From assembly GCA_024679065.1 (NCBI GenBank), contig JAGIQG010000024.1, positions 19,158,001 through 19,222,000 on the forward strand: a stretch of 64,000 nucleotides of DNA. Direction: 5' to 3'. The notes beneath the pieces were generated by a model, which was not told the DNA's origin, searched no databases, and worked only from the letters and a program-made list of their open reading frames with translations. This DNA is from Sphyrna mokarran. Lineage: Eukaryota. The first letter of the stretch is position 1. Every line of letters starts with the position of its first letter. Shown here piece after piece: positions 3,601 to 62,202 of the stretch. A program made the position numbers and the translations under genes.

Positions 3601-6600
3601 ACAATTGAAAACATTGTTAGATTTTATAAACATAAGCTATGAAGCACTTCAGCAAGAGGCTTGCTGAATTTACATAAAAAACAAAATGCTGGAAAATCTC
3701 AGCACGTCTGACAGCATCTGTGGGGAGAGAATGAAGCCAACGTTGAGAGTCTGGATGGCCCTTCGTATCAGCTCTGACGAAAGGATCGAATGTATGAAAG
3801 TTAATGCAGAGAAATTCAAGGAAATCCAACTTGGGATGAATATCGTGGAGACTACAACAAATGGTGAAATCTTAAAATCAGCTCTGTTGAAGGGTTATCC
3901 AGACTCAAAACGTTGGCTCTATTCTCTCTCCACAATGCTGTTAGGCCTGCTGAGACTTTCCAGCATTCTGTTCCTGTTTCAGATTCCAGCATCCACAGCA
4001 TTTTTGCTTTTATATTATTCGAATTGCTTCTGAAGCTGCAACTAAAATACTGAGTTCAGCTTTGTTCACCCTACTTTAGGATGAAAAAAGAAGAGATTCT
4101 CCAAGGTAAAATTGTGGGCGAGAACAGATGAAAGAAACTGTGACTTACATCAATAAAACAGAAGGGTTAAGGTAGGAAGGAGGTCCTTAAAATTGTACGC
4201 TTTGCTAAGTCAGAGCAAAACCACTTCCATTGACCAATGAGCTGGTGACTGAGGGACATAACTTTAAAATTGTCTTTGAATGAAGGGAGAGATCAGGAAA
4301 CTTAAAAGAAATGTTAAAGAATGTCTTGCTCAGAACAATGAAGGGAGCAGAACCAATAATACTTCTTGAATTTTATTTAAGGGTAGGGGAAAAGGAGAGA
4401 GAAATACCACTAAGTAGACATGTTCATTAAAGATCTAGTGCCGGTGGAATGAGCTGACAGGATCCCTCCTCTCCTGTCTAAATTCTGTTACAAGTTCTAC
4501 TATGAAAATGCTCCCAACACAAGGTGCAAGCTTTGTTTTTCTCTCCATGGATACTATTTGACCTGCTGAATACTTCCAGCATTTTTCTGTTTCTAGTTCA
4601 TGCTTAGTTGGCAGAACAGATTTTAGTTAGGGCAGTTCTACAGAATGTGAACTGGCACTAGAGCTCTGGGCTTGAATTTAAATTCTGTTGGCAAATCTGG
4701 AATATAAAATTAATCTTTATAACGGTGACCGAGAAACTATCATTGATTTTCATAAAAACCTACTGGGTTCCTCACCAATGTCCTTTTGAGAAGGAAGTCT
4801 GATATTGTTACTTAGTCTGGCCTACATGTGGCTCCAAGTTCACAGTAATGTGGTTTTTTTAAAACTATCCTCTGTCAAAGACAGCATAGTGGTAATGCTA
4901 TTGGATAAATAATCCAGAAGCCCAGGATAATGCTCTGGTGATGGTTAGTGTAGAGGTGCTGGTGTTGGACTGGATAAGCATAGTAAGAAATCTCACAACA
5001 CCAGATTAAAGTCCAACAGGTCTATCTGGTAGCTCAAGTCACAAGCTTGTGGCTTATGTTACCAAATAAACTTGTTGGACCATGGCAAATAGCTCAGACT
5101 AACACTGGTGACACAGGTATACAGCCTGTTAAAGCTGACACACAGATAAAGACAGCCAGCATGCCTACCCTAGCATGAGTCAGTGTCTTTAGGTGAAGGA
5201 AGAGAAGAGAAAATGGAGAAATCTACCTAGCTGTGAGAACTGGTCTTGATGTGGAGATATCGGCATTGGACTGGGATAAATACGGTAAGAAGTTTCACAA
5301 TACCAAGTTAAACCTGTTGGACTTTAATCTGGTGTTGTGAGAATTCTTACTGAGCTAGTCTTAGCAGATGCAGCAGTAGGTGACGAAAAGCACACACTGG
5401 ACAACCCTCACTCAGGAGGATTCAGGCAGCCAATGCTCTTTATCCTAAATGCCATTCAGCACTCCCTGCGCAAACATTCAGCATCCAAAGAAAGAATCTG
5501 GCAAGGCTGAGGTCTCATGCCTCCAAATTTTTACTATCTAGGCTTATCTACAAATAATGTCATCTGAATGGGGACTGGAGGGTGAATGATAATCAGGCAT
5601 TGATATACTGGAATAGAGACAATACCTTCTGAGGTGGGGGAAATTGAGCTGAGAAACTTGCAAGTAAAATCACAGAAGCCATGTATTAGAAATAAAAACT
5701 GAAAGGAATAGAAATGCAAAGGATCACAAAGATGGCTTTGCAGGTTAGCGGAAATCAGAATTTTATTACTTTTTAAAGGACTTCCACCCAAGTTTTTCAA
5801 AAATTAAAAGTGAATTAAATATATCTTAAAAAATTCTGATTCAGGCTCCTCTGTGGCTTCCTTCTGAAATGTTAACTACTGTTGTGTTTATGATGCAGAC
5901 AGACATTCCTTCTGGTAATCATTAGTATATGCTTAACTACATCCTTAGAAGCACAACTCTGTCAACTATGTGGACTTTTAAACTTCCAAAGCTCAGTGAA
6001 TGTTTGCTGTAGAATACTTTCTCACTGCAACCAAGGTCTAGTGATGCATTGTGACATACCATTCAACTTAACCTAGTCTTCTACTATTTGCTACATTCTG
6101 ATAAACTCTGGCCAGTTTACAAAGCTCACCCAATCCCAACACAAAAATGATTATTTAGGTTAATTAGAACAATGAACAAAGGCTAAAGGTGTACCAATGC
6201 TCACTGAAATTTGGGTACATTTGGCATCAAAAGGGCAATTATAGCAAGTACAGCACAGAAACAGGCAACTGGGTATGTCTGATATTACTCTATTCTTTTT
6301 CCATCATGCGTTTAATTCATTTTTCCCTAATTCACATTTTTACTATTCACCTCATCTATTTCACTGGTAGAGATTACATTTTAAGCACTCTAGTTCTTCA
6401 TTGTTACATGCTTCAAACTCAGGTTTGGAAGGCAGTAACAATCAGGATTTACCACGTTTGAGGATGGGAGGATGGGGTGGAGCTAGTGGTTGTTATACTG
6501 AAAGAATCAATGTCAAATAAGAATAGGGACTGCTGGTCAACATTCCTCCCTTATCAATAATACTGTAAAAGGGTTAACTGAACATCAATTTCACTGCTAT

Positions 6601-9600: not shown

Positions 9601-12600
9601 CTTCAATGCTAATATATATTCCAACAATTTGGTTCACCAAATTCCAGATGGGATCTGATCAAAACCATGTACTATTGAAGTCCAATAGGCTTATTTGGTA
9701 CGAGCTTTTGGAGCACTTCAGATTCACCTGGTGAATGAGCAGAGCTCTGAAAGCTCACAATACCAAATAAACCTGTTGGACTATAATTTGATATTGAGAG
9801 ACTTACTGTGCCCACCCCAGTCCAAAGTCGGCACCTCCACATCATGTACAATTGAAACATCACTTCCTCAGTTGTGCATTCCAATCCTCCAAGATAAAAG
9901 CCAACATTCCTTTAAGTTCTTCCGATCACTTTTATACCGGTGAATTATGTATTTTTTGTGATTTACATGCATAGATTCTTAAACTCATTAGCCTCTCCGC
10001 AGCTCCCACCCTTTCACCATTAAGAAAATATAAATATCCTAATTTGACTTTCTTCAACACAAACTTTATGAATTTTCACTGCCCACACTGAGCTCCATCT
10101 GTGATGGTAACGGATAAGCAATTCATCATAGGTAATCTGCAATTGCATTCCATTTCAAGGTCAAAATCCACCTGCTGCTTACTTTGTCAACTATGCCATA
10201 CAGTGGTACGTTGAGACTTACCAAACAAAGGATTGCTATTCCGGTTGGGCTTTGGAGGTGGAATCGGGGGCTGCTTGGCAGGAGCAGGGTTGGTGATGGT
10301 GATGGTGGTGGTGGTAGTGGTGGTGATGATGGTGGTATTTGTAGCTGTGGCCAAAGAGTCAGTGGTATTGGTGGTAGTAGTGGAACAGGAAGTAGAGAAA
10401 CAGGAAACAATGGAAGCAACGTCCTTGGCAGCTGTCAAGTTGGCTCCAGGATCTTTCACTTGCCCCTCGCCAGCTTCTAAAGTGGGAGCTGATAGGTGCC
10501 TTTTAGGAGGCAATAAAGCCTGTTTGTGATCACGTATGTGTTCCATCCCTGACATCGGACGTCGATCTGCAGCCTCTGCTATATAAAAAAAATTTGCAGA
10601 AAACGCACATCAGACAGAGGAAACATGAAACTGGGAGATGCAATATGAAAGAATGAAAAGCACAAGGAAATTGATAACTCAAAAACTCACTAAAAACTGG
10701 AAAACAACTACCAAAATTACTACACTGGAAAGATAAAAAAATTCATTAAATATTTATGTGGACATTGTCAGTTTTATAAAATGGTTATTTTTTAGATACC
10801 AGAAAATAGAGTGCAATAGAATATAATCTATTACACTGAACAAGGTCTAGCTTTAGCTTATGATGATCTAATTACAAGATGGCCTTCTCAATTCCTTGAT
10901 AATAGCTTACACAATGCACAGCTATCATTAGTACAATGGATAACAACCAAATAATAATCATACAATCCCTACAGTGCAGAAAGAGGCCATGTGGCTCACC
11001 AAGCCTACATAGACAATAATCTCACCTATGCCCTATCCCAGGAATCCCATGTATTTATCCTGTTAGCCCCCATGACACTAAGAGGCAATTTGGCATGGCC
11101 AATCAAACTAACCTGCAATCTCTGGACTACGGGAGGAAACCAGGGCACCCTGATGAAAGTCATGCAGACACAAGGAGAATGTGCAAACGCCAGAAATACT
11201 AAGACACGAAGGGTTTAGCATGAAGGAGGGGCTGAAGGAAATCCTTATTATCCTGGAAATTGTATTTGGGAAATTACTGGGACTAAAACCCAACAAGTCC
11301 CCAGGGCCTGATGCTCTGCACCCCAGAGTACTCAAGGATGTGGCTCTAAAAATAGCAGATGCATTGGTGATCATTGTTCCAGCATTCTATAGACTCTGGA
11401 AGAGTTCCAGTGAATGGGAGGATAGCTAATGTAACCACATTTTATAATAAAGGGAGAGAGAAAACAGGGAACCAAAGAGCGGTGTTATGGTGGAACAGTC
11501 AGTCGCTGAAGGTTCGCATGCAAGTACAGCAGGTGGTGAGGAAAGCTAATGGCATGCTGGCCTTCTTAGCAGACGGATTTGAGAATAGGTGTAAGGATGT
11601 CTTGGTGCACTTATACGAGGCCTTGGTAAGGCCGCACCTTCAGTATCATGTGCAGTTCGGTCTCCTTTTCTGAGGAAAGGCATTTTTGCTATTAAGGAAG
11701 ATCAGCAAAGATTCGTAAGACTGATTCGCAGGACTGATGTTTGAAGAAACTAGACTTGTGCTCATTGGAATTTAAGAGATTGAGAGGCGATCTCAAGAAA
11801 CATAAAATCTTGATGGAATCGGACAGGGTAGATGTGGGAAGAATGATTCTGATGTCGGGGAAGTGCAGAACCAGGGGTCACAGTATAATTCTTAGGGTAA
11901 GCCATTCAGGACTGAGATGAGGAAGACTAGCTTCACTCAGAGTTGTGAATCTGTGGAATTCTCTACCAGAGAAAGCTGTTGGGGCCAGTTTGTTAGGTAT
12001 GTTTAAGTGGGAGCTGGATGTGACCCTTGTGGCTAAAGGGATTAAGGGATATGGAGAGAAAGGGGGAGTGAGATACTGAAAGTACATGATCATATTGAAT
12101 GGTAGTGCAGGCTCGAAGGGCTGAATGACCTGTCCTTGCAACTATTTTCTACGTTTCTGTGTTTCGATGTTTTCACATAGAAGGGCACCCAAGGCCGGAA
12201 TGGAATCTGAGTCCCAGGTGCTGAGGCAGCAGTGCTAACCATTGTGTGTTACCATGCCGCCCAAGTGGGAGGCGAGGGGAGAGATTGCAGAGCTTCTGGT
12301 GACGATCTTTGCGTCATCGATGGAGACAGGACAGGTTCTGGAGGATTGCAGATATTCAAGAAAGGGAGAAGAGATAGCCCAGGAAATTATCCACCGGTGA
12401 GTCTAACCTCATTGGTTGTTAAGTTGATGCAGAAGATCCCAAAAAGCTGGATTTACGAACATTTGGAGAGGTACAGTATGATCAAAAATAGTTAGCACGG
12501 TTTTGTCAAAGGCAGATTATGCCTAATGAACCTGGTTGAGTTTTTGGAAGATGTGACTAAACACTTTGATGAAGGAAGAGCAGTACGTGTGGTTTATATG

Positions 12601-24600: not shown

Positions 24601-27600
24601 TTCCTCTCTTCCATTTCCTGATTTAGTTATTTTTAGAATGTTACTTGTGTTCTCTAGAGCGAAGACCAATGCTAAATACCTATTTAATTCCATAGCACCA
24701 CTAATCATCAATTCTCCAAATGCACCTTCTACAGACCAACGTTCAGTGTGTCAACTCTTTTCTTATTTAACTGTCTATAAAACCTCTTACTATCAGATTT
24801 TATATTAGTAGCCAGCTGAAAGCCAGCTCCCCACCTCTTCCTTAGATTTACTCAAAGTCCAGACATCTACCACACTCTGCAGTAGTGAATTCCACATTCA
24901 CAACCCTTTGAGAGAAGTAATTTTAGGCTCTCCTCTTGCTATTCTTCCTCTCTCATCGGAATGTATCTATTCTGTATATTCTGAAATGCCCCTTTAAATG
25001 ACTGCCACTGAACCTCCATTGACCTACCTTCTAAGCACATTTACCATGTTACTTTAGCTGGCTCTGCTTTCATGTCCCCATAATTGCCCTTATTTAAATT
25101 TGAATACTGCCATACCTTTCTGACAAGCCCCCATTATCTCTTCTTTTCTACTCTGCCCTACCATGTAGTTACAATTAGAATGCCTGTACGCCACTCCCAC
25201 AAGTGAATTCTTGCTTTTATAATTTCTCATTTCAATCAAAATCGATTTCAGTTTCCTGAACTTAGATCATCCCTTTCTAATGTGCTAATACCATCATTAA
25301 TTTCCATCTTTTCTCAATCTCTTGTGTTTCTTAAATGTCACATACCCTTCAACATTAAAGGTCCTAATCTATTTCATCCTGTCATCTTGTCTCTGTAATG
25401 TCTATCAGGTCATACTTATTCATTTCTTTTTGCACTATCATCTGTTCTGCTTCGGATGCTTTGTGCGTTTATATACAGCGTCTTTTAATTTAACTATTTT
25501 TGTGGCATCTAGCCTTACTTCAGATTTACTCAGAGATGTACTCTTTTCCTCTTCCTACCACAGTTTGTTCATCATTTACCATATTAGTACCTTTCTTACA
25601 CATTTTGGTCCTACAGTTTGGCATACATCTTCCCACGTTTGATTCCTTGCTCCCACTATTCAGTTTAAACCTCTCTTTGCTTCCCTAGTTATTGGCTTGC
25701 TAGAACGTCAGTTGTTGACCATCTCAATGGTACAGATTCCACTTTGCCCAGTAATGGTGCAGTGCCCTACAATCGGAACTCGCTTTCCGCACACCAGTGT
25801 TTGAGCCACACATTCATTTTTCTAATCTTGTTTGTTCTATGCAAATTTGCACATGGCTTAATTCTTACCTTTGAGGTTTTGCTTCTTAATTTGATGTCTC
25901 CACTCCTTGTACTGACGATACCTCTTTCTTCATCCTACCTATATGGACGATGATCACTGGATCCTCCTCCTCCCAACTCAAGTTCCCCCTCTGCAGACGT
26001 CCTGAATCCTGGCACCAGATAGGAAATGCTGGCGTTGGACTGAGGTAAACACAGTAAGAAGTCTGGTAATACCAGGTTTAAGTCCAACCAATTTATTTGA
26101 TAGTAACCTCATAAGCTTTCGGGGTTTGTCCCTTCATCAGGTGAATGGAGAGTTCTGGCCTCAGACAGAGCATATAATAGCACAGAGTATTATATGCTCT
26201 GTCTGAGGCCAGAACTCTCCACTCACCTGACAAAGGGATAAACCCCGAAAGCTTGTGAGGTTACTATCAAATAAACTGGTTGGACTTAAACCTGAAGTTG
26301 TCAGACTTCTTACCAAATAGGCAACACGGTTACCTGGACTCGCTCCTTGAACAGAGAACAGTGTCAATCCCCCTCATTATATTGTCTCCTATCACCACTA
26401 AGTTCTAACGTGTTCCCCTCACTTGAAAAACTGCCTTATCACCTTGTCAAGCGCAGCCAGCTCATCCAACCTGTAGCCCCCACTCTTATCCAAACAAGCT
26501 GAAAGAACATCAAACCTGCTCGACAACTGCAGAGGCTGACACTTATCCTGTGGGACCCTTTGCCTACCTCAACTATAGTCGCATCCTTTTGTCCCTGACC
26601 ACTTTGCAAACCAGTAGACCCTATCTTAAGGGTTGTAATCATCTCCTGAAACAAAATGTCCAGATGACTCTTTCCCTCTCTCTGCTACTCAGCCTCCAGC
26701 TCAATGACATTCCTTCAAAGTTCCTCAAACTGCAAACCCTCATTTCACAATGTTATCCAGGAACTCTCATATGTTGCAACCTTGACGTATCACCTGCCTG
26801 CCATCCTTTGTGTTTTAAATAACTATTTAATTAAATTATCTACTTACTTATGGTGCATTTTAACTTTACCACCAAGTTCTGTTTTAAACTTTACAGATAA
26901 AGTAGAATTTACCCACTTATCAGATTCTCGCCAAACAACAAACAAAGAAATGACTCAAATGGCACTAAATCCCTCAGATCAGACAGCTTCATACTGGGAT
27001 TTTAATAATACAAGAGAACATTGCAGATACCTAAACTATAATCCTCCAAAGTTCTTTCAATTTGGAGCAATTCATTTAGATTGGAAATTTGCACGTCACT
27101 CAGTTAATTATAAAGGTGATAGAGGGAAATCGTAGGATGAAAGACCAGCTAGCCTGTCATTAATTTCCTGACGATTAGAGTCTATTATTAAGGATAGGAT
27201 GACTGAATCTGTTGAGAAGTTTCAGTAGATCAGGCAGTCAACAGGGATCTGTAAATGACTAATTTTCTTTTAAGAGACAATTGAAGAACAGATAGGGGAG
27301 CGTCTACGAATCTTTCTTGTATGGTTCTCCAGAAGGCACTTGATAAAAATGCTTCAGAAGAGACTGTTGCTGAAGTTGAAACTCATGAAATTGGTACCAA
27401 ATCATTGACTTTGTTAGAAGTTGGTTGAATAGAGCATCCAAAAGGGGGGATATTGGAGAGCAGAAGTTAAGAATAACCGAAAGATACCATCTTAAATCAA
27501 ATACTTAATTACTGTAAAGACATTAGTGCATATTATCATGCATGTTGAGGCTCAAATGTTGTCACTGTTAAACAACTGGACGGAGGGAATTATAAACTTT

Positions 27601-30600
27601 ACATCTGTAGATTCTACATGCAAAACCATTCCAGTTGCGGTCGCAGCACCGATCTCATTGGATTCTTTCTCACGAAAGGGGACCAAAATAGTGCGCAGTA
27701 CTCCAGATGCAGTCTCACCTTTGCCCTATACAATTGCAACAACACTTTCCTACTTTAATACTCTATTCCATTAGCAATGAATGTCAAAATTTCATTTATC
27801 TTTCTTATTATCTGCTACACCCCTATGCTAACTTTCTATGATTTATGCATGACGACTCCCAGATCCCTCTGCACAGAGGCTCCTCACCATTTAGGCATCG
27901 CCTGTCAACAGCTTAGGCTGTATTGATTTTTTTTTCCTCCCACTTCTTTCCTTTTTCAATTCAGGCTTTTTTTGACTAAGGAAAAAATTGGCATAGAATG
28001 TTTGGTAATGTGCATGTTAAAAAATGCACTTTCAGAAGCAGATATTGCATTATCTTGCCTCAAAAAGGACATGCAAACAGTCCCAGATCAAGACCCTTTT
28101 TCAAAAATGAGGACTTAATTGAGACATTAAGTTAGCTTTCTTTTTACAGGTAAATACTGACCTGCATTATTCATGCCTTATTTTAGAAAATTTCAGCTTC
28201 GGTTTTCATATTCAAGAAAAGCTCTCAATTGTCTCATTTAAATTGTAAGATTAAGTGGCAGTTTTCTAAATAAAATAAGTCAATCATCTACTAAACTATA
28301 ATAGGAACAGCTGCATAAATGGCTTATCTGATGAAGACAGAATATAAAACATGTTTACAATTTACAGGTTATTCTCCTTTCATATCATGCTAGTGGGAAT
28401 TGCAGATTAGAAAGATAGGTAATAAATATTTAATCTAATTAAAATCACAGAATCAGGAATTTCCCTTGATGGTCTCATGTGCAAATGCAGCACAGAGCCA
28501 TTCAGACCTAAACGTTCCTCTATTTACACAGAGTTAACTCATCTCTGCCAAAGTAGCAGCTGAGTCTTCCGGATGAGTACATGGGATTAAATGGGATTGG
28601 GAGTTACAAATAGCTCTATGGCCTAGTCGATGTGGATATGATCGGTGCAACTTGTGGGCCGAAGGGCCTTGTTGTGCTGTAGTGTTCTAACTGGACTCTG
28701 AATCTTGTGGCAAAAGGAAGAGAAAAAAATTCAGTTGGGGTTTCCCACTACTGCTTACAAACCCACGGTTCGCACTGGGATCCATTACAAACCCAGTTAC
28801 ATGGAAACAGACTATCAACCTTCACTATTTGGATTCTTAGAGTGGCCACTGGTTCAAAGTACACAGAGTAAACAGCTTTTTAAAATGGAGACTCTGTCTC
28901 CTTTGAAGTGGAGGGATTACAAAAGAATAAATCACAGAACTGAGATCCAATATAGACTAGCTTGATGCATTACATACTTCTATTACAAAGCTGAACACAA
29001 GGGTTAAAAGTTAAAAGTTAATTTATTAATCACAATTAGTCTTACATTAACACTGTAATGAAGTTACTGTGAAAATATCCCAGTTGCCACACTCTGGCAC
29101 CTGTTTAGGTACATTGAGGGGAAATTTGACCTGGCCAATGCACCTAACCTGCATACGTTTGGACTGTGGGAGGAAACCCAAGCAAACACAGCGAGAACGT
29201 GAAAACTCCAGACAGTGACCCAAGCTGGGAATTGAACCCGGGTTCCTGGCATTGTGCTAACCACTGTGCCACTCTAAAAAAACTGTAAGTGACAATCTTT
29301 GAGTTTTCCATGCTGCAATTCAGGGCAACAAGAAAAACCAAAGAGAAACGCTATTCTAATCAAGCAGCTGTAAACAGAATGGTGGCAAGCAGGAGTGAGG
29401 TGTGATAAACATCAACAAGAGTAAGAATCACCACAAAAGGGTTCAGAGCTACCAATGAGAAGTAGAGTGTTTACCCGCTGGCTAGGATACACCTGCAGCT
29501 CAGTTTACAAGGAAGTCTCATATCAAAATACACTTTATGGTTTTCCATTACTTTAAAGTAGAATTCTGTTGAAGGAAATTGTAGCTGAAAATAAGCTTTC
29601 ACCTTGAAGGATGTAAAGACGGCTGCTCTCTCAACTGGCCACGTGTTCTGATGGCATTCCTATGATTATTTTAAAACAATATTAACCTATTTAAAATAGG
29701 CAGATCGTTTTTAAACTTGATGTAATAGATATTGAATGATACATCAGCTTGAGGAACTATCAGCCTCCTATTTATTTTTTTACCTTAAAGCATAGACAAA
29801 GGAATATATAGAATCATACAATGCAGAAGAGATTCTTTGGCCCTTTGCATCTGCACCGACATGTGAGAAACACCTGAACTCCCACCGAATCCAATCTACC
29901 AGTGCTTGGCCCATTCCCTCTGGAAGCATATAACGGTTCTCGACATGGACAGTAAGAAGTCTGACAACATCAGGTTTAAATCCAATTGATTTATTTGATA
30001 GTAAACTCACAAGCTTTTGACCCTCTGGTCTTCATCAGGTGAACCAGAGGGTCGAAAGCTTGTGAATTTACCATCAAATAAATTGGTTGGATTTAAACCT
30101 GGTGTTGTCAGACTTCTTACTGTGTTTACCCCAATCCAACTCTACATCTCGATCTGGATATAGGAATATCCAATTCTGATGCAATACTGATGTGACCCAT
30201 TCTTGATGCTATGCATCAGAAGCAAGATATCTGACTCGGGAAGTAAACAGGGTTAAGCTTTTTCCTAGGATGGACTCAAATAGCATGAGGGATCACGGGC
30301 TTAGGGTGAGAGGGATAAGGTATAATTTGGATGCTAGAGGGAGTTTTTTCACAGAGGGTGGTGGGGGTATGGAATGCCAAGTGGTGGAGGCAGGCACTCT
30401 GGAGTTATTTAAGAAATACTTAGATGGGCACATGAACAGAATGGGAATGGAGGGGTATAGAAAACTGATTTAAAATAGGGATCATGAGCCTTGGGAGTCC
30501 CTGGGAAGTGTGTAAATAGATGATGATATTGATGTACTTGTTTTTATCCTACAGGTGCTTTGGTCCACCTTGTTGTCTAACAAGGGGCATACACATGATG

Positions 30601-49610: not shown

Positions 49611-50477
49611 TATCCTGGGAATTATATCATCAGAGGTGCCATTTTTCAGATGACACATTAAATGAGATCTGAGTTATCTGCTTAAGGTGGATGAAGGTGA
49701 TCTTAAGGCACTATCTTGAAAAGAAAAAAACCTACATTTATATTTGCAGAAGTGGGGAGAGAGAAAAACATGACTCATACAACATGCAGAGGGGTTCAGG
49801 GAAATAATCCTAGCGTTCAGGACCTAGGCATAGAATTACACAGTATATTCAGCACAGAACACACTAGTGAATCAATCTAGTTGTGCTGGCATTTAGGCTC
49901 CGTACATAATTCATACCATTTAGCATTTCTTCCTGTTCCTTTCTCATTGTGGACAGCATGGTAACACAACGTTAATGTCTCACAGCACCAGGAACCTGGA
50001 TTTGATTCCTGGCTTGGGTTACTGTCTGCATGTTCTCCCCGTGTCTGCACGTGTTTTCTCCGGGTGCTCAGGTTTCCTCCCAAAGACACGTTGGTTAGAT
50101 GCATTGGCCATGCTAAATTCTCCCTCAGTGTACCCGAACAGGCGCCAGAGTATAGCGACTAGAGAATTTTCACAGTAACTTCACTGCAATGTTAATGTAA
50201 GCCTACATGCAACACTAATAAATAAACTTTAAACCTCGCCTAGTTACATTCTTACACCCCATGGAAATGGAATGGGAAACAGAGAGACGAGAAAGAGTGA
50301 AGGGAATGGATATGAGGCAGAGTCAGCGGAATAGAGAACCTGTGAAGTGGGTTGAGGGGATTCTTGGACTGGAGATTTTAAAGAGAGGAAGAGGAACATG
50401 CCATGAATGTATTTAAACATAGTGGAAAATTTTAAGTTTGAGGATACTAGGAATTTGAAGCCAACGTAGGTCACTGA

Positions 50478-50644: not shown

Positions 50645-50716
50645 TTAAGGCACCCAGTTATTGAAGAGAGCAATTATGAACCACAGACTTTTATTTCAAT
50701 GACATTTCTCCTCAGA

Positions 50717-51060
50717 CAAAAAACAGAAAATGCTGGAAAATCTCAGCATGTCTGACAGCACCTGTGGAGAGACAATAAAGCTAATGTTGAGAGCAGAGAA
50801 AATCAGAAGAGATTTATAGTATGAGGGTGGGGGGTGGGGGCGGGCTTTGATTGGACAAATGGAATGTAAATAAGAATGAAGGAAGCTGAGGAAGGTGCTA
50901 AGAGTGTCTATTAAATGATAAGAACGTGTAAATGGCAGAAGAGGTACAGATAGTTAAGTCTTTAAGTCTTTAAAGGGTAAATGGAGATTGGGAATGGAGA
51001 AGTGAAAACATTTAAGTGAGAAAGGAGGATGACAAAAATTTCTGCCTCATCCTCTTTCAA
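50717..51060 (-). mobile_element. Penelope family B single arm with internal sequence
   Basis: aaaacagaaaatgctggaaaatctcagcatgtctgacagcacctgtggagag with no inverted partner; right boundary uncertain. Confidence 0.55.
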
Positions 51061-51234
51061 AATAAAAGAAGAGTTTGTTCATCACAAGACCCCTGCTAGA
51101 ATTGTTCTCGTTGTTCAACGAAGCGAGTGGAGAGAAGGTTAGAGAGAGTAAAGGTAAGCAATTGACTTTGTAAAGTTTTTTTTGCGGGCTTTAATGGAAA
51201 TCCAGTTTTAAAAGTTAAACACGAAGTGGAGCGT

Positions 51235-51671
51235 GGGGGGCGGAGGAGGAAGGAGGAGGGGGGAGGGGCGAGGAGGGGGAGAGGGGGGAGAGGGGGGAGG
51301 AGGGGGGAGGGGGGGGGGGAAGGAGGAGGGGGGGAGGGGGGGGGAGGGGGGGGAGGGGGGGGGGAGGGGGGGGAGGGGGGGGAGGGGGGGGAGGGGAAGG
51401 GGGGGGAGGGGGGGGAGGGGGGAAGGGGGGGGAGGGGAGGGGGGGGAGAGGGGGGGGAAGAGGGGGGGGAGAGGGGGGGGAGGAGGGGAGGAGGAGGAGG
51501 AGGAGGGAGGAGGAGGGGGGAGGAGGGGGGAGGGGCAAGGAGAGGGGGGAGGGGAAGGAGGGGGAGGGCAAGGAGGGGGAGGGGCAAGGAGGGGGGAGGG
51601 GCAGGAGGGGGAGGGGCAAGGAGGGGGAGGGGCAAGGAGGGGGAGGGGCAAGGAGGGGGAGGGGCAAGGAG
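51235..51671 (+). repeat. Poly-purine (G/A) tract ending in about 16-nt GGGGCAAGGAGGGGGA tandem units
   Basis: Almost pure G/A for about 430 nt, running into the gap. Confidence 0.9.
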
Positions 51672-52027
51672 NNNNNNNNNNNNNNNNNNNNNNNNNNNNN
51701 NNNNNNNNNNNNNNNNNNNNNNNNNNNNNNNNNNNNNNNNNNNNNNNNNNNNNNNNNNNNNNNNNNNNNNNNNNNNNNNNNNNNNNNNNNNNNNNNNNNN
51801 NNNNNNNNNNNNNNNNNNNNNNNNNNNNNNNNNNNNNNNNNNNNNNNNNNNNNNNNNNNNNNNNNNNNNNNNNNNNNNNNNNNNNNNNNNNNNNNNNNNN
51901 NNNNNNNNNNNNNNNNNNNNNNNNNNNNNNNNNNNNNNNNNNNNNNNNNNNNNNNNNNNNNNNNNNNNNNNNNNNNNNNNNNNNNNNNNNNNNNNNNNNN
52001 NNNNNNNNNNNNNNNNNNNNNNNNNNN
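51672..52027. other. Assembly gap (356 N)
   Basis: Run of n. Confidence 0.99.
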
Positions 52028-55671: not shown

Positions 55672-56738
55672 CTTCTATTCTGCTTTAGCTTCACTGTGCA
55701 ATACTTCACGTAGATAGGAGTTGGGCAGCTGGGTCCTGGATGAGCTGAAATTTATGGACGATCAGAAAACATTGATGGAAGATCAGCGTTAATTAGGAAA
55801 GCAATGGAGTTATTCATTCTTCGATGACAACAGCATGGCTGAGCATTTCAACAGAAATCAATTAGATTAGGAACACAATATGGAGCAGATGGGAGGAATG
55901 CTCAATAGAACAGAACTTCCATAACTTTAGGGTTCAAAGTGGGGAAGTGAGGAGAAGAGAACAGTAGGCAGAGGGACACATGAAGAATGAAGAGAACTCA
56001 TTTCCATCAGGATGGAAATATTCAACTTTTATAAACGGTCATCTTTCCTAACTTCAGAGAGATCCAGTTGTTGGATTTCTCGCACCATGGATTGCTTTAG
56101 TTCACGATTGACATGATATAATTGTTTGGAATGTTGGGCGTGAAGATAATGACTGACACCTCAGGGCCATTAAATAATGTATTCCACAACCCATTCCACC
56201 CCCATCCTGACTTGCTTTTCCTTTCGCAATTAAAAGCTTTCAAAAACTTTAGTCCCAAATCTGCAGGATGCCAAACATAATGAGGACAGGCGCAATGCTG
56301 AGGACCCGCAACTCAGGATATTGTTTGTGTGCTGCTGCAAAAAGGTTCATGAGGTAACAGGGAAAAACTGAGTAGCTAAATAAACTATCAATTTGTGTCC
56401 CAGCCAATGGTCGTCCCAGTAACTAAGCTCACTTTCTCAAACCATTGACTGCATCTCTGCAGAAAAAGATTGAAAAATTAGCACGAAGTTTGTGGCAGAA
56501 TTGCTTCTTCAGCCATCCCAATGTTCAGCACCAATTAGTGACGTGCACTGGGATAGCAGTTTCCCAGCAGGGTCACTCGTTATCCTGATCCCTAATCTTA
56601 CGCCGTTAGAACAGATGGCCAAGGACGCCGTTGGCCCGGGCAGGAGAGGTTCATTAGTACTGAGGGAGCACTATACAGCAGAGGGGCAGTATTGAGGGAG
56701 CATCAAACAGCAGAGGAGCAATCCTGAGAGACCACTAT

Positions 56739-57122
56739 AGTAAGAAGTCTCACAGCACCAGGTTTAAGTGCAACTAGTTTATTTGATACTAATCCCACAA
56801 GCTTTCGGAAATTGTGTTCCTTTGTCCAGTGTGTGGAAGGTTCTGATCAGAGAAGGGCATTTAAAGACACACAAGGTTTACAGAATACTGATTAGAATGC
56901 AAGTCTTTACAGCTAACCTGCTATTCATTCTAATCAGTATTCTGTAAACTGCGTGTCTTTATATGCTCTTTTCTGATCAGAACCTTCCACACACCTGATG
57001 AAAGAACACAGTTTCCGAAAGCTTGTGAGATTACTATCAAATTAACTGGTTGGACTTAAACCTGGTGTTGAGAGACTTCTTACTGTGTTTACCCCAGTCC
57101 AACACCGGTATCTCTACATCAT
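56739..57122. mobile_element. Penelope-derived family A hairpin, about 160-bp arms, 26-nt loop
   Basis: Arms 56739-56899 and 56926-57084, followed by the family 3' extension gtttaccccagtccaacaccggtatctctacatcatg. Confidence 0.85.
56990..57029 (+). ncRNA. Minimal type I hammerhead ribozyme motif, best-preserved core in window
   Basis: cac CUGAUGA A aGAA cacagu UUCc GAAA GC UU gug; core intact, first stem II pair mismatched. Confidence 0.6.
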
Positions 57123-58129
57123 GACTATCATTGGAGCGCTATAGGACAGAGGGGCATTATTGAGGGAGCGCCTTACAACAGAGGAGCAGTTTTGAGGGAA
57201 CATACAGCAAAGGAGCAGTATTAAGGAGCACGACACAACAGAACAGCAATCTTTAACAAGACTTGGGCTCCATTTTGCCTATTCAAGTGCAGGTTAATAA
57301 AAACAAATCACAAAAATGCTGTTGCACAAGAGCTTGGGAGTTTCCCCTAAGGCACTAGGCCAAATTACCTCCATCAGTAAATACTAAAAACAGATTTTTA
57401 TCAACAATTTTGTTTGTGGAGCTTTGCTGCGCACCAAATGACGACTAAGTTAGCCTACAACCCATAAGTATCTACGCTTCAAAAGTAAACTAGTGATTCC
57501 AAGTTGCTTTGCAAATATAGCACACAAGGTTGTATCTGTAAGTGGAAATTCCTTTCTCCTGTTGCTTAGCACCACATGGTGCAGTCCATTAGTAATAGAG
57601 CCAGACAAGCAGGTTTTTTCGCAGCACTTTTCCGTTTGACACACTCTGCCAACAAAAAAAGCAATGGTATTGGAGCTGTACTACTGTTCTGTGCTTCACT
57701 GAGGTCTGGCTGATCTTCACCACCTTCCAAACTGGAGTGAAAGCAGCAAATAAACACATATATCTTAATGACCCAGCAGCCAAGTCAAGTCATCCCAAGA
57801 ACACACACAAAGAAACTCAGTTTCAGCTCCAATGATCTGTTTTTAATACTGCTCAGGTGTTCTGTTATATGTTACTGGTTACAGCCAATGGGCAACAGGC
57901 AAACACAATTCTCCTAGGGCTAAGATACAGTATTATTCACCCTCACAAAACATAGTAAAATTTTAGTTATGTTACATAAAAAATCTCAGTTCAGAAGGAA
58001 GCCATTCAGCCCAGCATGCCTGTGACAGCTCTTCAAAAAAAAAGCTATCCAATTAATCCAATTTCCCTGCTCTTTCCCTATAGTCCTGTAAAATATGTTA
58101 ACTTGTATTAGCAAAGTCATTACTGTCCT

Positions 58130-58630
58130 ACATTTGAAACCTAGCCACATAAGGAGATATTAGGAGAAGTGACCCAAAGTTTAGTACAAGAGGTAAGTTT
58201 GAAGGTGCAGCTTAAAGGAGGAGATCAAAGCATTGTGGAGGAGAAATTTGGGAAGGGAATTCCAGGGCTTAGGGTCAAGATAGCTGAAAGCACAGCCAGC
58301 AGTGGTGATGGTTAATGTTGAGGACATGCAAGAGGTTGGAGTAGAACAATGTGGGAGGATTGAGGGGCTATAGGAGCTTACCATGATGGGGAGGCCATAG
58401 AGTGATTTGAAAACATGAACATTTTAAAATTTGATGCCAAGGTTGGGGGTAGCCAATATGGTGAGTGAGCACTGGGAACCAAGTTGAATGGGACTTGGCT
58501 CAAGTTAGAACATTCAGAGCTTTGGCCCACAGAGGAAAGACACCTGGAACACCCAAGTCCAGCGGAAACCAAGGAAGAATGAGGATTTCAGCAGATCAGC
58601 CAAGGCAATAGTGGGATATTTGATGGGGTG
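58130..58630 (-). mobile_element. L2-clade LINE 3' end
   Basis: ORF 58181..58384 includes AGCAFSYLDPKPWNSLP...SSFKLHLQTYL, resembling the L2 ORF2 C-terminus. Confidence 0.7.
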
Positions 58631-58663
58631 CAGGATTGATGCCAGAGGGGTTACAGACTAGGA

Positions 58664-59128
58664 AGATTTGATTTATTGTCACATGTATTAATATACAGTG
58701 AAAAGTATTTTCTTGCACGCTGTACAGACAAAACATATTGTTCATAGAAAAGGAAATGAGAGAGTGAAAAATGTATTGTTACAGTCATAGCTTGGGTGTA
58801 GAGAAAGATCAATTTAATGCAAGATATGTCCATTCAAAAGTCTGATGGCAGCAGGGAAGAAGTTGTTCTTGAGCCGTTTGGTATGTGACCTCAGACTTCT
58901 ACATCTTTTTCCCAAAGGAAGAAGATGGAAGAAAGAATACTAGGGTGCTTGGGGTCCTTAATTATGTTGTGCTGAGATAGTGGGAAGTATAGACAGAGTC
59001 AATGTATGGGAGGCTGGTTTACGTGATGGATTGGGCTACCTTCACGGCCTTTGGTATTCCTTGCAGTCTTGGCAGAACAGAAGCCGTACTGGGCTCTGAT
59101 ACAACCAGAAAGAATGCCTTCTATGGTG
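58664..59128 (-). mobile_element. Rex1/Babar 3' fragment
   Basis: Reverse complement of the 48576-49300 3' region, including gatttgatttattgtcacatg. Confidence 0.85.
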
Positions 59129-59620
59129 GAGGACTGAAATCAGAAAAAGTACAAGACTGACCAATGTTGAGACCGAGTTTGACGCCGAACCTGATTATTG
59201 AGTTGTCCCCTTCAAAGTATTGGCCTTTAAAAAAAAGTTTGGAAACAAAAAGCGTGGCAAAACCTACATTCTTTCAAGTTAACCCACGTTGGAACAGAAG
59301 TTGGATGAGAATATACAGGAAGAACGAACAAATGCAGTGATCATTATGAAGTTCAAGAGTTCAGGCTTCAAAGCTGACAATTTAATCTACACTTGAACAG
59401 TTCTCATAACACATGCTGGACTAGATGTTAGACATGGACTGGTCAACACACCATTCTTTTTCCTCATTTCATTTCCAAATCCGCAATCTTGACCACAAAA
59501 ATGAGAACAAGGGCATTGGTTGTTTGGGAATACCATTACCTGCAAGTTCCTTTTCCTGTCAAACAGCATCCTGAATTTGAACTGTATTGCTGCTCCTTCA
59601 CTGTCACTGGGATAAAAACC

Positions 59621-60005
59621 AGTCTGATAGCCAACTTCTGCACACATGAAGACGGTCTTAACAGGGATCTTGGCTTCATGTCACACTATCTGTAACCCCC
59701 ATGACTTGCCTGGGTTAGCAAAAAACCTCACTTACTGTGCTGTCTGGAGACAATACACATCTCTCTAACCAATGCTCCGTGTTCCCTTCACTCACATTGT
59801 TAGCCACTTTAAGACTTGAATAGCAGGTTAGGTGTAAGGATTCGCATTCTAATCAGCAATCTATAAACTGTCTGTGCTGATATGTGTGCTATTGCAGACC
59901 AGAGCACCTCATTTGCCTGACAAAGGCACAAAGGCCGAAAGCTAGCAAGTTTACTATCAAATAAATCGGTTGGATTTAAAATTGGTGTTGTCAGACCTCT
60001 TACTG
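59621..60005 (+). mobile_element. 5'-truncated Penelope-like element: end of GIY-YIG ORF plus 3' pLTR/UTR with hammerhead motif
   Basis: Translation ends LIANFCTHEDGLNRDLGFMSHYL*, resembling vertebrate Penelope C-termini. It is followed by the family A arm and uugc CUGACAA A GGC acaaag GCC GAAA GC UA gcaa. TSD-like gataaaaacc and gataaaaccc. Confidence 0.8.
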
Positions 60006-61585
60006 ATAAAACCCTAACAACAGAGGGTGCACCTACCCCATATGGGCTGCAGCATTTCACCATCACTTTTCCAAGGGAAATTAGGTAGGACAGCATCCAC
60101 ATCTATAAGAAAAATCAACTCCACACTCATTTACCATAAAACCTGGCATAAACGACAATCCAATTTTCCACTCCAAGAACCCTGCTTTTGCATATACTTG
60201 GCATATAAATTGACCTCCTTTTCAACCATGACATGCTATAATCATATTAGTAGTCAGCCTCAATTTTTTTTGCCTCATGAATACATACTTTATTCACCAG
60301 CATTTTATAACTGGGTGCAAGGGATCAGGCAGATGATATGGCTATGTTAAGAAAATGCACAGGAGTCTGACACGTCTACACTTTGCATCAGGTACCAATG
60401 ATATTTCTAAATGGTGACTGCTCACACTCAAATTGACAGTTCACCTTTGTACTTAAAGCATTAGTCCATCCCTGCTTTGGGAGCGAACTTTTGAGGCTTC
60501 AAACATCAACTTAAAAAGGGAGTGTTAATTTGTCAATTATTTTAGATACAGTTTATGCTTTAGAATGACACAGCTCAGAGGGCTGCCATTTGATCCATCA
60601 TATCTGTGCTGGTAGTTGGCATTTTTCTCCCTCATAAAGCCATGAGTTTGGGAGGCCGCAGCAGCAGAAACTACAGGTTGAAAACTATGACCACAGGATG
60701 CTTTACAAATGACCTTTAACACTGGGACATAAGGAAAACAAGTCAGTAAGCCAAAGATAATATTAGGAGTGCCCAAAGCTTTTGTCAATCACATGAGTTT
60801 TAAAGAAAATTATATATAACGTACTGCAAAGAAGCAGGTCATTTGGCTCAATGAGTTTATGCTCTAAATGAGCTTCCTATCAACTCCATTTCAACTAACC
60901 TGATCATATCCTTCTATTCCTTTCCTCACACAGTTTCTTATTTCCCCTGAACCGTGTCTGTGTTACTAGCCTCAAGTGCTCCATGTGGTAAGAAAATCCC
61001 ACATTCTAACCACTCCCTGGGTAAACAATTTTCTCCTAACTTCCTTACTGGATTCCTGAATGATTTTATAAAAATCATAGAATTCCCACAGTGCAGGAGG
61101 CCATTCGGCCCATCGAGTCTGTATTGACCATAATCCTACCCAAATCCCTATTCCTGTAACCCCACATATTTATCCTGTTAATCTCCTTGACACTACGGTT
61201 AATCTAACACAGCCAATGAACCTAAACTGTGATGCTCAGATAATAAAAGAGAACATGGAACATCAAAGGATTTAAGGAGGAATTCCCAGGACATGGGGCT
61301 AGGTCTTAAAACATGGTTGCCAAAAGTATCACGAAAGCAGTGAACGAATGCACAGGAGATCAAGATTTGGAACTATGTTTCAAGGCAAAAGAATGATGGG
61401 GCATGAAAAAATTTAAATGAGTATTTGGCAGCCAGCAATGAATGCAAGTCAGCAAGCATACTTGAGATGAGTGAATCAAATGTGATAAGAACCTAAACAG
61501 CAAAGCTGTTAATGAGTGAAACTTTATAAAACTTGGATGATGGAGAGCTAGTTAGCAGAGCATTTGAATAGTGAAGGCTGAAGGT

Positions 61586-62202
61586 GATTTTTGATTTGAT
61601 TTATTATTGGCACATTTATTAGTATACAGTGAAAAGTATTGTTTTTTGTATGCTATACAAAGTATACTGTTCATAGAGAAGGAAAGGAAAGAGTGCAGAA
61701 TATGGTGTTACAGTTAAAGCTATGTTGTAGAGAAAGATTAACTTAGCGTGAGGTAGATCCATTCAAAAGTCTGATGGCAGCAGGGAAGAAGCTGTTCTTC
61801 AATTGGTTGGTACGTGACCTCAGACTCCTGTGTCTTTTTCCTGACAGAAGGTGGTGGAAGACGGAATGTCCTGGGTGCATGGGGTTCTTGTTTATGCTGG
61901 CTGTTTTTCCGAGGCAGTGGAAAGTGGAGAGAGAATCAATGGATGGGAGTTTAGATTTTGTGATGGACTACATTCACGACCTTTTGTAGTTTCTTGTGGT
62001 CCTGGGCATAGCAGGAGCCATAGAACATAGAACATTACAGCGCAGTACAGGTCCTTCGGCCCTCGATGTTGCGCCGGCCAGTGGACCCTCTAACCTAAAC
62101 TATTCCAATATCATCCATATGCCTATCCACCGAACATTTGAATGCCCCCAAAGTAGGCGAGTTGTGATACAACCATAAAGAATGCTTTCTATGATGCATC
62201 TG
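61586..62202 (-). mobile_element. Rex1/Babar 3' fragment with nested CR1 tail (about 62019-62160)
   Basis: Matches 58664-59128; the insert catagaacatagaacattacagc matches 36432-36635. Confidence 0.8.

What the first reader, a model, noticed from the sequence alone, without database searches (positions are those of the whole stretch)
59621..60005. Truncated Penelope element linking the window's hairpin family to a ribozyme-bearing retrotransposon
Seen: the end of an ORF (...FCTHEDGLNRDLGFMSHYL*) runs into the same arm sequence that forms the inverted repeats at 5.0, 5.3, 9.7, 26.0, 29.9 and 56.7 kb. Established: Penelope-like elements end in a GIY-YIG endonuclease, carry pseudo-LTRs that are often inverted, and host minimal hammerhead ribozymes. 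Inference: the MITE-looking palindromes are retrotransposed Penelope 3' ends, not DNA transposons. Their density (seven family A copies in 64 kb) suggests a large non-autonomous fold-back family.
Basis: partly seen in the sequence, partly recalled or inferred. Interest (0 to 1): 0.7.

Follow-up and report, generated by a model that had tools for sequence, protein, structure and literature searches.

The report
Truncated Penelope retrotransposon ends in shark
This is the broken-off tail end of a Penelope-type jumping gene, and the six hairpin-shaped repeats nearby are one-off products of the way this known class of element inserts, so the feature is real but ordinary.

Summary
Observation confirmed. 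59621-60005 is a 385-bp, 5'-truncated copy of a Neptune-type Penelope-like element (PLE). Its first 72 nt encode the last 24 residues of an RT + GIY-YIG protein; named hits are shark proteins. A minimal hammerhead follows at 59911-59950. Its stems covary across 7 arms, but this copy has a G8A core change. An 8-bp target duplication flanks it, and a contig of run X6 shows the empty site. The six palindromes share this 3' end. All are head-to-head, with a 24-38 nt tail on only one arm, different fold-back points, variable target duplications and non-complementary outer ends, so they are not MITEs. They are probably not a re-amplified fold-back family either: in the three best-preserved hairpins, arms within one insertion are 89-91% alike against 71-80% between insertions. 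This layout (inverted pseudo-LTR plus one-sided tail plus hammerhead) is published for PLEs. One small mechanistic point: in 3 of 6 hairpins the tail sits on the shorter arm, which a simple cDNA snap-back cannot produce. Ordinary; interest 0.2.

The parts
59612..59620 (+). Left target-site duplication ATAAAA(A)CC (one extra A relative to the right copy)
   Evidence: single copy at the empty site in run X6, record 25
59621..59695 (+). Last 24 codons and stop of the PLE ORF (end of the GIY-YIG endonuclease domain); 5' truncation point at about 59621
59696..60005 (+). 3' UTR / pseudo-LTR, ending at the tail-less end (..CTTACTG); 59817-60005 is shared with the hairpins
   Evidence: loose ends of 222 and 204 contigs at 60005/60006 in X1
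59911..59950 (+). Minimal type-I hammerhead: stem I 59911-16/59945-50, core 59917-23 (G8 changed to A), 3-bp stem II, GAAA, palindromic AGCU; predicted cut after 59944. Probably inactive in this copy
   Evidence: features compared with PMC4209133
60006..60013 (+). Right target-site duplication ATAAAACC
4952..5080 (-). Hairpin A5.0: arms 70/70 nt from the pLTR end, folded at the hammerhead AAGCTT palindrome; tail on the left arm; right arm stops about 30 nt short; left boundary approximate; no convincing TSD
5248..5351 (-). Hairpin A5.3: arms 28 (tailed) / 52 nt; possible 11-bp TSD with 2 mismatches (not significant alone)
9680..9842 (+). Hairpin B9.7: arms 95 (tailed) / 71 nt; tail-less arm stops about 30 nt short; 14-bp TSD with 1 mismatch
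26024..26311 (-). Hairpin C26.0: arms 136 (tailed) / 128 nt, 91% alike; 10-bp TSD with 1 mismatch
29950..30146 (+). Hairpin D29.9: arms 80 (tailed) / 95 nt, 91% alike; 6-bp exact TSD core (12 bp with 2 mismatches, read by eye from the context)
56739..57123 (+). Hairpin E56.7: arms 161 (tailed) / 189 nt, 89% alike; inserted into a 32-bp tandem repeat; 5-bp candidate TSD (not significant alone)

Best explanation
All seven copies are dead-on-arrival, 5'-truncated insertions of a very abundant Neptune-type PLE in a shark-type genome. Shown here: homology to the end of an RT + GIY-YIG ORF, a filled versus empty site, target duplications of variable length, a sharp shared 3' end, a tail on one arm only, and variable junctions. 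From the literature (PAc, a Poseidon PLE): the protein nicks both DNA strands and starts reverse transcription at two adjacent internal RNA sites, whose spacing is the tail. Inferred here: 59621-60005 is the simple outcome. One cDNA starts at the inner (tail-less) site, aborts 385 nt in, just inside the ORF, and is joined with an 8-bp duplication. A hairpin arises when both nicked target ends are used, one starting at the outer site (tailed arm) and one at the inner site (tail-less arm). The two aborted products are joined head-to-head over 0-6 nt of microhomology, probably after one cDNA folds back locally, which would explain why the two arm lengths track each other. The hammerhead is under selection in the RNA of the autonomous source elements, not in these copies. 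Confidence in identity and origin is about 0.9; in the two-ended priming detail about 0.45.
For: Peptide: 9 of 10 candidates at E<=10, best 9.5e-6. P0008 carries RVT_1 and P0005 carries GIY-YIG. tblastn of P0008 gives 74% identity, E 3e-8, its only significant hit in the window. 16/22 residues are identical to the C-terminus of the 881-aa P0012. Empty site: X6 record 25 joins 59617 to 60012. Other copies in X1: loose ends at 60005/6 with a tail-like consensus of low agreement (0.40-0.43, as for a mix of tailed and tail-less ends); 3 of 15 listed joints change strand, each at a different place; go-back joints from the pLTR end to 59624, 59715 and 59928 (partial tandems). Window: tail on exactly one arm in 6 of 6; arm lengths 189/161, 136/128, 95/80, 95/71, 70/70 and 52/28, r=0.98; outer ends match 2-4 of 15; TSD scores combined p~5e-5. 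Hammerhead: 71% of cells paired, 3/500 shuffles as high, slid controls <=43%. The layout is described in PMC8557442, PMC3846280 and PMC11167929.
Against: No full-length element DNA was seen (no genome), so the link from pLTR and tail to the ORF start is not shown. TSD boundaries were chosen by hand, so the p-values are optimistic; 3 of 7 copies (A5.0, A5.3, E56.7) have no individually significant TSD. The A5.0 tailed arm is closer to the A5.3 arm (86%) than to its partner (83%), and the B9.7 arms are only 71% alike. Arm-to-arm gene conversion could also raise within-hairpin identity. Rfam finds no hammerhead, and single-sequence folds are not better than shuffles (z -1.2 to +0.2). The empty site differs from the window by a further 13-nt block, so it rests on one contig of a roughly 8% diverged relative. 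The joint and loose-end tables were truncated (15 of 25 joints and 24 of 1631 loose ends shown).
Confidence: 0.85

Rival explanations
1. The hairpins are a non-autonomous fold-back family: palindromic pLTR units are transcribed and re-mobilised in trans by the PLE protein (the first reader's last inference; akin to retrozymes or PLE-derived SINE-like elements).
For: High density (7 in 64 kb, 2.6% of bases). In-trans mobilisation through pLTRs is reported in Adineta, and non-autonomous pLTR derivatives exist in vertebrates, including one chondrichthyan.
Against: Six different junctions in six hairpins, and three further different strand-change joints in X1. Each hairpin has a private stem-II variant. 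Summed contig depth in X1 over the ORF-end bins 59640-59707 (2-4 million) is of the same order as over the terminal bins (2-8 million), suggesting a continuum of truncation lengths (depth is not copy number).
Confidence: 0.08
2. Same origin, different mechanism: the inversion forms by self-priming on a single (possibly antisense) template, and the tail is left on one side by endonuclease resolution of a hairpin intermediate (Arkhipova 2013; Craig 2021).
For: Short loops (0-28 nt) and correlated arm lengths favour an intramolecular fold-back; A5.0 folds exactly at a natural palindrome. The models are stated in PMC3846280 and PMC8557442.
Against: The simplest form, a cDNA copying itself back, cannot place the tail on the shorter arm, as in D29.9, E56.7 and A5.3 (3 of 6). 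In vitro, PAc extends both nicked strands from two internal starts. A hairpin-resolution form is not excluded by these data.
Confidence: 0.35
3. The palindromes are MITEs of a DNA transposon that happen to share sequence with a PLE.
For: Short, palindromic and numerous; the 59.6 kb copy has an 8-bp duplication, as hAT elements do (recalled).
Against: Outer ends are not inverted repeats of each other (2-4 of 15 matches in 6 of 6 hairpins); TSDs of 5-14 bp; variable centres; continuity with an RT + GIY-YIG ORF end and a covarying hammerhead.
Confidence: 0.02

Closest known systems
Canonical EN+ Penelope-like elements, Neptune clade (Craig et al. 2021, PMC8557442; passages read)
   Same: C-terminal GIY-YIG after RT; CX2-5CxxC linker in the relatives; 5' truncation; adjacent inverted 5'-truncated copy; 30-40 bp tail at one end; hammerhead in the pLTR; partial tandems.
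   Different: Here 6 of 7 copies consist only of two inverted pLTR stubs with no ORF. No microsatellite target bias is evident (only E56.7 sits in a 32-bp tandem repeat). Clade assigned by linker and host range, not by a tree.
PAc, Poseidon PLE of Anolis carolinensis (Frangieh et al. 2024, PMC11167929; main text parts 1-2 and passages read)
   Same: Two 3' ends one tail-length apart; hammerhead upstream of them; tail region can fold into a stem-loop (z -0.1 to -2.2, weak).
   Different: Different clade. In PAc the ORF starts inside the hammerhead and the tail lies in the ORF. Here pLTR and tail translations match no N-terminus among 141 held proteins, so the tail may lie upstream of the ORF (inconclusive). 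The passages read do not address inverted copies.
min-HHRs of metazoan PLEs (Cervera and de la Pena 2014, PMC4209133; parts 1-2 read)
   Same: Type I, no helix III loop, palindromic 15.2-16.2, extra base between 9 and 10.1, G10.1-C11.1 pair, high sequence variability, pairs on opposite strands 100-700 bp apart noted there as truncated PLEs.
   Different: Stem II here is only 3-4 bp; sharks are not named in the text read (supplementary figures not seen).
Adineta vaga Penelope insertions (Arkhipova et al. 2013, PMC3846280; passages read)
   Same: Head-to-head inverted pLTRs, palindromes at the junction, 31-bp tail, TSDs of 8-10 bp or none.
   Different: Low copy number there; here probably of order 10^5 per genome (extrapolated).
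Non-LTR retrozymes (Li et al. 2026, bioRxiv 10.64898/2026.07.22.740005; part 1 and passages read)
   Same: Derived from PLE pLTRs; carry type-I hammerheads.
   Different: Retrozymes are head-to-tail tandem arrays; these copies are single or head-to-head.

Membership tests
EN+ Penelope-like element | Single ORF with RT and C-terminal GIY-YIG endonuclease | tested here: met
   The window holds only the last 24 codons; these match the C-termini of proteins with RVT_1 and GIY-YIG
EN+ Penelope-like element | Pseudo-LTRs in partial tandem and/or inverted orientation | tested here: met
   Inverted in 6 of 7 window copies; go-back joints from the pLTR end in X1
EN+ Penelope-like element | 30-40 bp tail at only one end | tested here: met
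   24-38 nt tail on one arm in 6 of 6 hairpins, absent from 59.6 kb; mixed loose ends at 60005/6
EN+ Penelope-like element | Minimal hammerhead in the pLTR (sequence and structure) | tested here: met
   Core, palindrome and covarying stems I and II; core intact in 2 of 7 arms; Rfam models do not detect it
EN+ Penelope-like element | Hammerhead self-cleavage activity | not testable with these tools
   Needs an in vitro assay
EN+ Penelope-like element | Short target-site duplication of variable length, single at the empty site | tested here: met
   8 bp with empty site; 14, 10 and 6-12 bp in three others; weak or absent in three
EN+ Penelope-like element | Full-length copy linking this pLTR to the ORF start | not testable with these tools
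   No genome held; scans 31, 32, 48 and searches gave nothing usable
Neptune clade | CX2-5CxxC linker between RT and a C-terminal endonuclease | tested here: met
   Present in P0008 and in 89 of 91 held proteins of 600 aa or more; lies outside the part kept in the window
Neptune clade | RT phylogeny groups with named Neptune elements rather than Nematis | not tested
   No reference set on hand; vertebrates are reported to hold only Neptune and Poseidon
MITE / TIR DNA transposon | Terminal inverted repeats at the outer ends | tested here: not met
   2-4 of 15 matches
MITE / TIR DNA transposon | Constant TSD length | tested here: not met
   5-14 bp
Non-autonomous fold-back family | Copies share one internal junction | tested here: not met
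   6 of 6 window junctions differ; small sample
Non-LTR retrozyme | Head-to-tail tandem array of hammerhead units | tested here: not met
   None among the 7 window copies

The most novel reading that the evidence does not exclude
Shark genomes hold on the order of 10^5 one-off PLE hairpins that record the integration reaction. They would show that PLEs insert by priming from both target nicks at two different RNA start sites, one tailed and one tail-less, joined after a local fold-back, with a third start site at the base of the stem that pairs with the tail (both B9.7 and A5.0 stop there). In this family the outer start may coincide with the ORF's start codon rather than lie inside the ORF. 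That would make the unsolved steps of PLE integration testable by counting.
Probability: 0.3. Interest if true: 0.5.

Novelty: new member of a known kind. Interest (0 to 1): 0.2.

Why it matters
Practically, it corrects annotation. Thousands of MITE-looking or microRNA-looking palindromes in shark genomes (the 56.7 kb hairpin scores weakly as mir-607/mir-590) are PLE insertion by-products. Inverted PLE copies are a known source of siRNA in Drosophila (PMC3681739, passages read), so such hairpins could feed host silencing (inference, untested). Mechanistically, the geometry of many such insertions could separate two-ended priming from self-priming, a step that Frangieh et al. leave open. None of this is a new class of element.

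Tried and rejected
No genome is held for this window, so no genome-wide BLASTN was possible. Rfam gave 0 matches at gathering score over the window and, for 56600-60100, 7 weak matches with no hammerhead; the microRNA hits only reflect the palindrome. A 23-letter pLTR-end pattern gave 0 viral contigs and 2 metagenome loci that proved to be chance matches with no family similarity. The search for related loci with P0012 in viral contigs: 105 pattern matches, none confirmed. Two searches for proteins that join the pLTR/tail frame to the ORF start failed: 1 candidate, none scored; 1 hit, a repetitive protein, chance. P0012 has no relative in the PDB at E<=0.01. My first structure string for the hammerhead was mis-registered by one column and gave nothing; one search is the corrected count on the same alignment. 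In one search the right TSD coordinates for D29.9 were off by one, so that row is void. A regex for the C-terminal GLN.D.G motif matched only 7 of 91 long relatives, so the terminal peptide identifies close relatives only. Single-sequence folding energies do not support the hammerhead or the tail stem-loop beyond shuffles. Summed contig depth was not used as a copy number. Literature searches listed no paper on these shark hairpins, and none of the 20 papers listed (of 32 holding three terms) contains 'twin priming'. Repbase, Dfam and subscription journals are not covered, and the supplements of PMC4209133 and PMC11167929 were not read and may bear on both points.

Full report
1. Observation. 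The sequence at 59621-59692 translates to SLIANFCTHEDGLNRDLGFMSHYL, followed by TAA. From 59817 to 60005 it is homologous to the arms of the palindromes at 56.7, 26.0 and 29.9 kb (72-87%, E<=3e-17), at 5.0 and 5.3 kb (E~1e-4 to 1e-5) and, weakly by BLASTN, at 9.7 kb. The repeat finder groups six of these places on its own (D11). A profile of the arms finds 13 arms in 7 insertions and no further copy. The seven insertions cover 1650 bases, 2.6% of the window. No whole genome is held.

2. The peptide. A 41-residue query (the 24 residues plus 17 flank codons) against longer proteins returned 9 of 10 candidates, best E 9.5e-6, 74-91% identical over the terminal 22-27 residues. The alignment shows the match is confined to the extreme C-terminus of 7 of the 9 proteins; P0003 and P0007 run on past it. 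P0008 (Heptranchias perlo, 643 aa) carries RVT_1 and P0005 carries GIY-YIG. tblastn of P0008 on the window gives one significant hit, 59612-59692, 74%, E 3e-8. P0008 retrieves 3053 proteins at E<=1e-20 among 8000 scored; the closest named ones are from sharks, and near-full-length relatives run to about 880 aa. P0012 (881 aa, RVT_1) matches the window peptide at 859-880, 16 of 22. A CX2-5CxxC motif lies in the last 230 residues of 89 of the 91 held proteins of 600 aa or more. Craig et al. give this linker as the mark of Neptune and Nematis (PMC8557442, passages), and a 2026 preprint finds only Neptune and Poseidon in vertebrates (passages). So: Neptune-type, with no tree run. That the host is a shark is inferred from these hits.

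3. Boundaries and empty site. Four public runs were laid on 59300-60300 at 80% likeness. In run X6 one 1562-nt contig covers 59326-59617 and 60012-60300 with 13 other letters between: the site without the element, in a relative about 8% diverged (47 differences in about 580 letters). Read against it, ATAAAACC is single there and doubled in the window (59612-59620 with one extra A; 60006-60013), and the window lacks a further 13-nt block to the right. The insertion therefore most likely post-dates the split from that lineage, although X6 holds the family (18,476 contigs laid). In X1, the best holder of this stretch, 50,262 contigs lie on the kilobase. Summed depth is about 15 in the unique flank and 0.9-7.9 million in bins wholly inside the element from 59640 on. 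The tool warns that this is no copy number. Seven copies per 64 kb scaled to 2.8 Gb of contigs would be about 3x10^5, an extrapolation from one window. Loose ends of 222 and 204 contigs start at 60005 and 60006, with a consensus like the tail and agreement of only 0.40-0.43. Three of 15 listed joints change strand (59631/59815, 59789/59909, 59916/59951). Three rows of table 5c run from the pLTR end back to 59624, 59715 and 59928, that is, partial tandems. Both tables were truncated.

4. The hairpins. Oriented by the ORF, all six are head-to-head. One arm continues past the common end into a 24-38 nt tail, the other does not. Measured from the pLTR end, the arms begin at 189/161 (E56.7), 136/128 (C26.0), 95/80 (D29.9), 95/71 (B9.7), 70/70 (A5.0) and 52/28 (A5.3), r=0.98. 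Junction overlaps, read by eye, are 0-6 nt; A5.0 folds at the hammerhead's AAGCTT. Outer ends match at 2-4 of 15 positions, so there are no terminal inverted repeats. TSD candidates are 14 bp (B9.7), 10 (C26.0), 7-9 (59.6), 6-12 (D29.9), 11 (A5.3), 5 (E56.7) and none (A5.0). Four of seven reach p<0.05 against random flank pairs, combined p~5e-5, with hand-set boundaries. Arms within E, D and C are 89-91% alike, against 71-80% between these insertions and 71-81% to the 59.6 kb copy. The three older, shorter hairpins are less clear. Each hairpin has its own stem-II variant in both arms where both reach it. This argues for independent formation from different source subfamilies; gene conversion between arms could contribute.

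5. The hammerhead. A relaxed core pattern gives 9 hits in the window, 5 of them in family arms. The motif has the features Cervera and de la Pena list for PLE min-HHRs (PMC4209133, parts 1-2 read): an extra base after A9, G10.1-C11.1, a palindromic 15.2-16.2 and no helix III loop. On 7 arms, 71% of cells pair (shuffles 64%, 3 of 500 as high) and 5 of 10 pairs show two-sided changes (9 of 500), while slid registers give <=43%. The structure was named by me, the rows are related, and a first mis-registered try gave nothing. The 59.9 kb copy differs from the others by two compensatory changes in stem I and folds into the hammerhead shape as its minimum-energy state, though not better than shuffles. 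Its core reads CUGACAA; the CUGACGA seen in contigs suggests CpG decay. G8 is needed for PAc activity, so this copy is probably dead (inference). The core is intact in 2 of 7 arms. Rfam does not detect the motif.

6. How it works. Established for PAc (PMC11167929): the protein cleaves and extends both target strands, is predicted to be a dimer, and starts reverse transcription at two adjacent internal sites whose spacing is the tail; hammerhead cleavage is not required in vitro. Inferred here: 59621-60005 is one cDNA from the inner site that aborted just inside the ORF. The hairpins use both target ends, one from each start site, joined head-to-head. In 3 of 6 the tailed arm is the shorter one, so each arm holds sequence the other lacks. 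A cDNA simply copying itself back cannot give that; both arms must have been read from a template longer than either. Yet the short loops and matched lengths suggest a local fold-back. A combination fits all six: fold-back of one cDNA, then priming from the second nick on the displaced RNA. Self-priming on an antisense template with endonuclease resolution (PMC3846280, PMC8557442) also remains possible. Six cases cannot decide this.

7. Comparison and novelty. Inverted 5'-truncated copies, a one-sided 30-40 bp tail, pLTR hammerheads, head-to-head orientation, junction palindromes and TSDs of about 8-10 bp are all described for EN+ PLEs. Opposite-strand hammerhead pairs 100-700 bp apart were already read as truncated PLEs. 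Seven literature searches listed no paper on this shark family, but Repbase, Dfam, subscription journals and unread supplements may hold it. Two earlier AI notes from another genome reach the same reading; they are not independent evidence. One possible difference from PAc and Adineta is that the tail here may lie upstream of the ORF. Two tails end in CATCATG, and pLTR and tail translations match none of the 141 held proteins in the sense direction. Two searches for a joining protein failed, so this is open.

8. Verdict. Real, correctly spotted, and correctly assigned to Penelope-like elements. The hairpins are insertion by-products rather than MITEs or a fold-back family of their own. New member of a known kind; interest 0.2.

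Noticed in passing
window 3672-3990, 37307-37490, 50716-50793: A second hairpin family with the same head-to-head layout, an extension on one arm only and a hammerhead-like core ending in GAAACGU (decayed in both copies matched); probably a second PLE family (Poseidon-type is recalled, not tested). The 50.7 kb copy is a single arm.
   Followed up: partly
window 9680 and 5080: The tail-less arms of B9.7 and A5.0 both stop at GTTGGAC, about 30 nt short of the usual end, at the base of the stem that can pair with the tail; possible third start site, n=2.
   Followed up: partly
window 59878-59945: The hammerhead variant of the 59.6 kb copy is abundant in runs X1 and X2 but depth drops about 100-fold in X6 and X11 at 80% likeness, hinting at a lineage-specific subfamily.
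   Followed up: no
window 59504-59620 and 60014-60285: The target site is itself an older repeat (raised depth in all four runs); the window lacks a 13-nt block present in X6 next to the insertion.
   Followed up: partly
window 3029-3157, 21140-21268, 24133-24311, 30732-30910, 39638-39872, 39980-40180, 44891-45172, 46028-46316, 50024-50219, 29005-29254, 32090-32212, 33745-33978: Abundant SINE-like family on both strands (D2, D3, D8, D9 and others), including an inverted pair at 44.9/46.3 kb; P0003 is a chimeric prediction of this SINE joined to the PLE end.
   Followed up: no
window 56633-56734 and 57133-57234: A 32-bp tandem repeat interrupted by the E56.7 hairpin (D15).
   Followed up: partly
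window 51182-51671 and 51672-52027: Low-complexity tandem array (D1) running into a 356-base assembly gap.
   Followed up: no
window 48893-49248, 58709-59056, 61657-61967: Three copies of a 230-310 nt dispersed repeat, 79-84% alike, on both strands (I1, I2, I12, D7).
   Followed up: no
window 23876-24311 and 30479-30910: Two roughly 430-nt stretches 93-94% alike, 6.6 kb apart (D12, D16): a young repeat or a local duplication.
   Followed up: no
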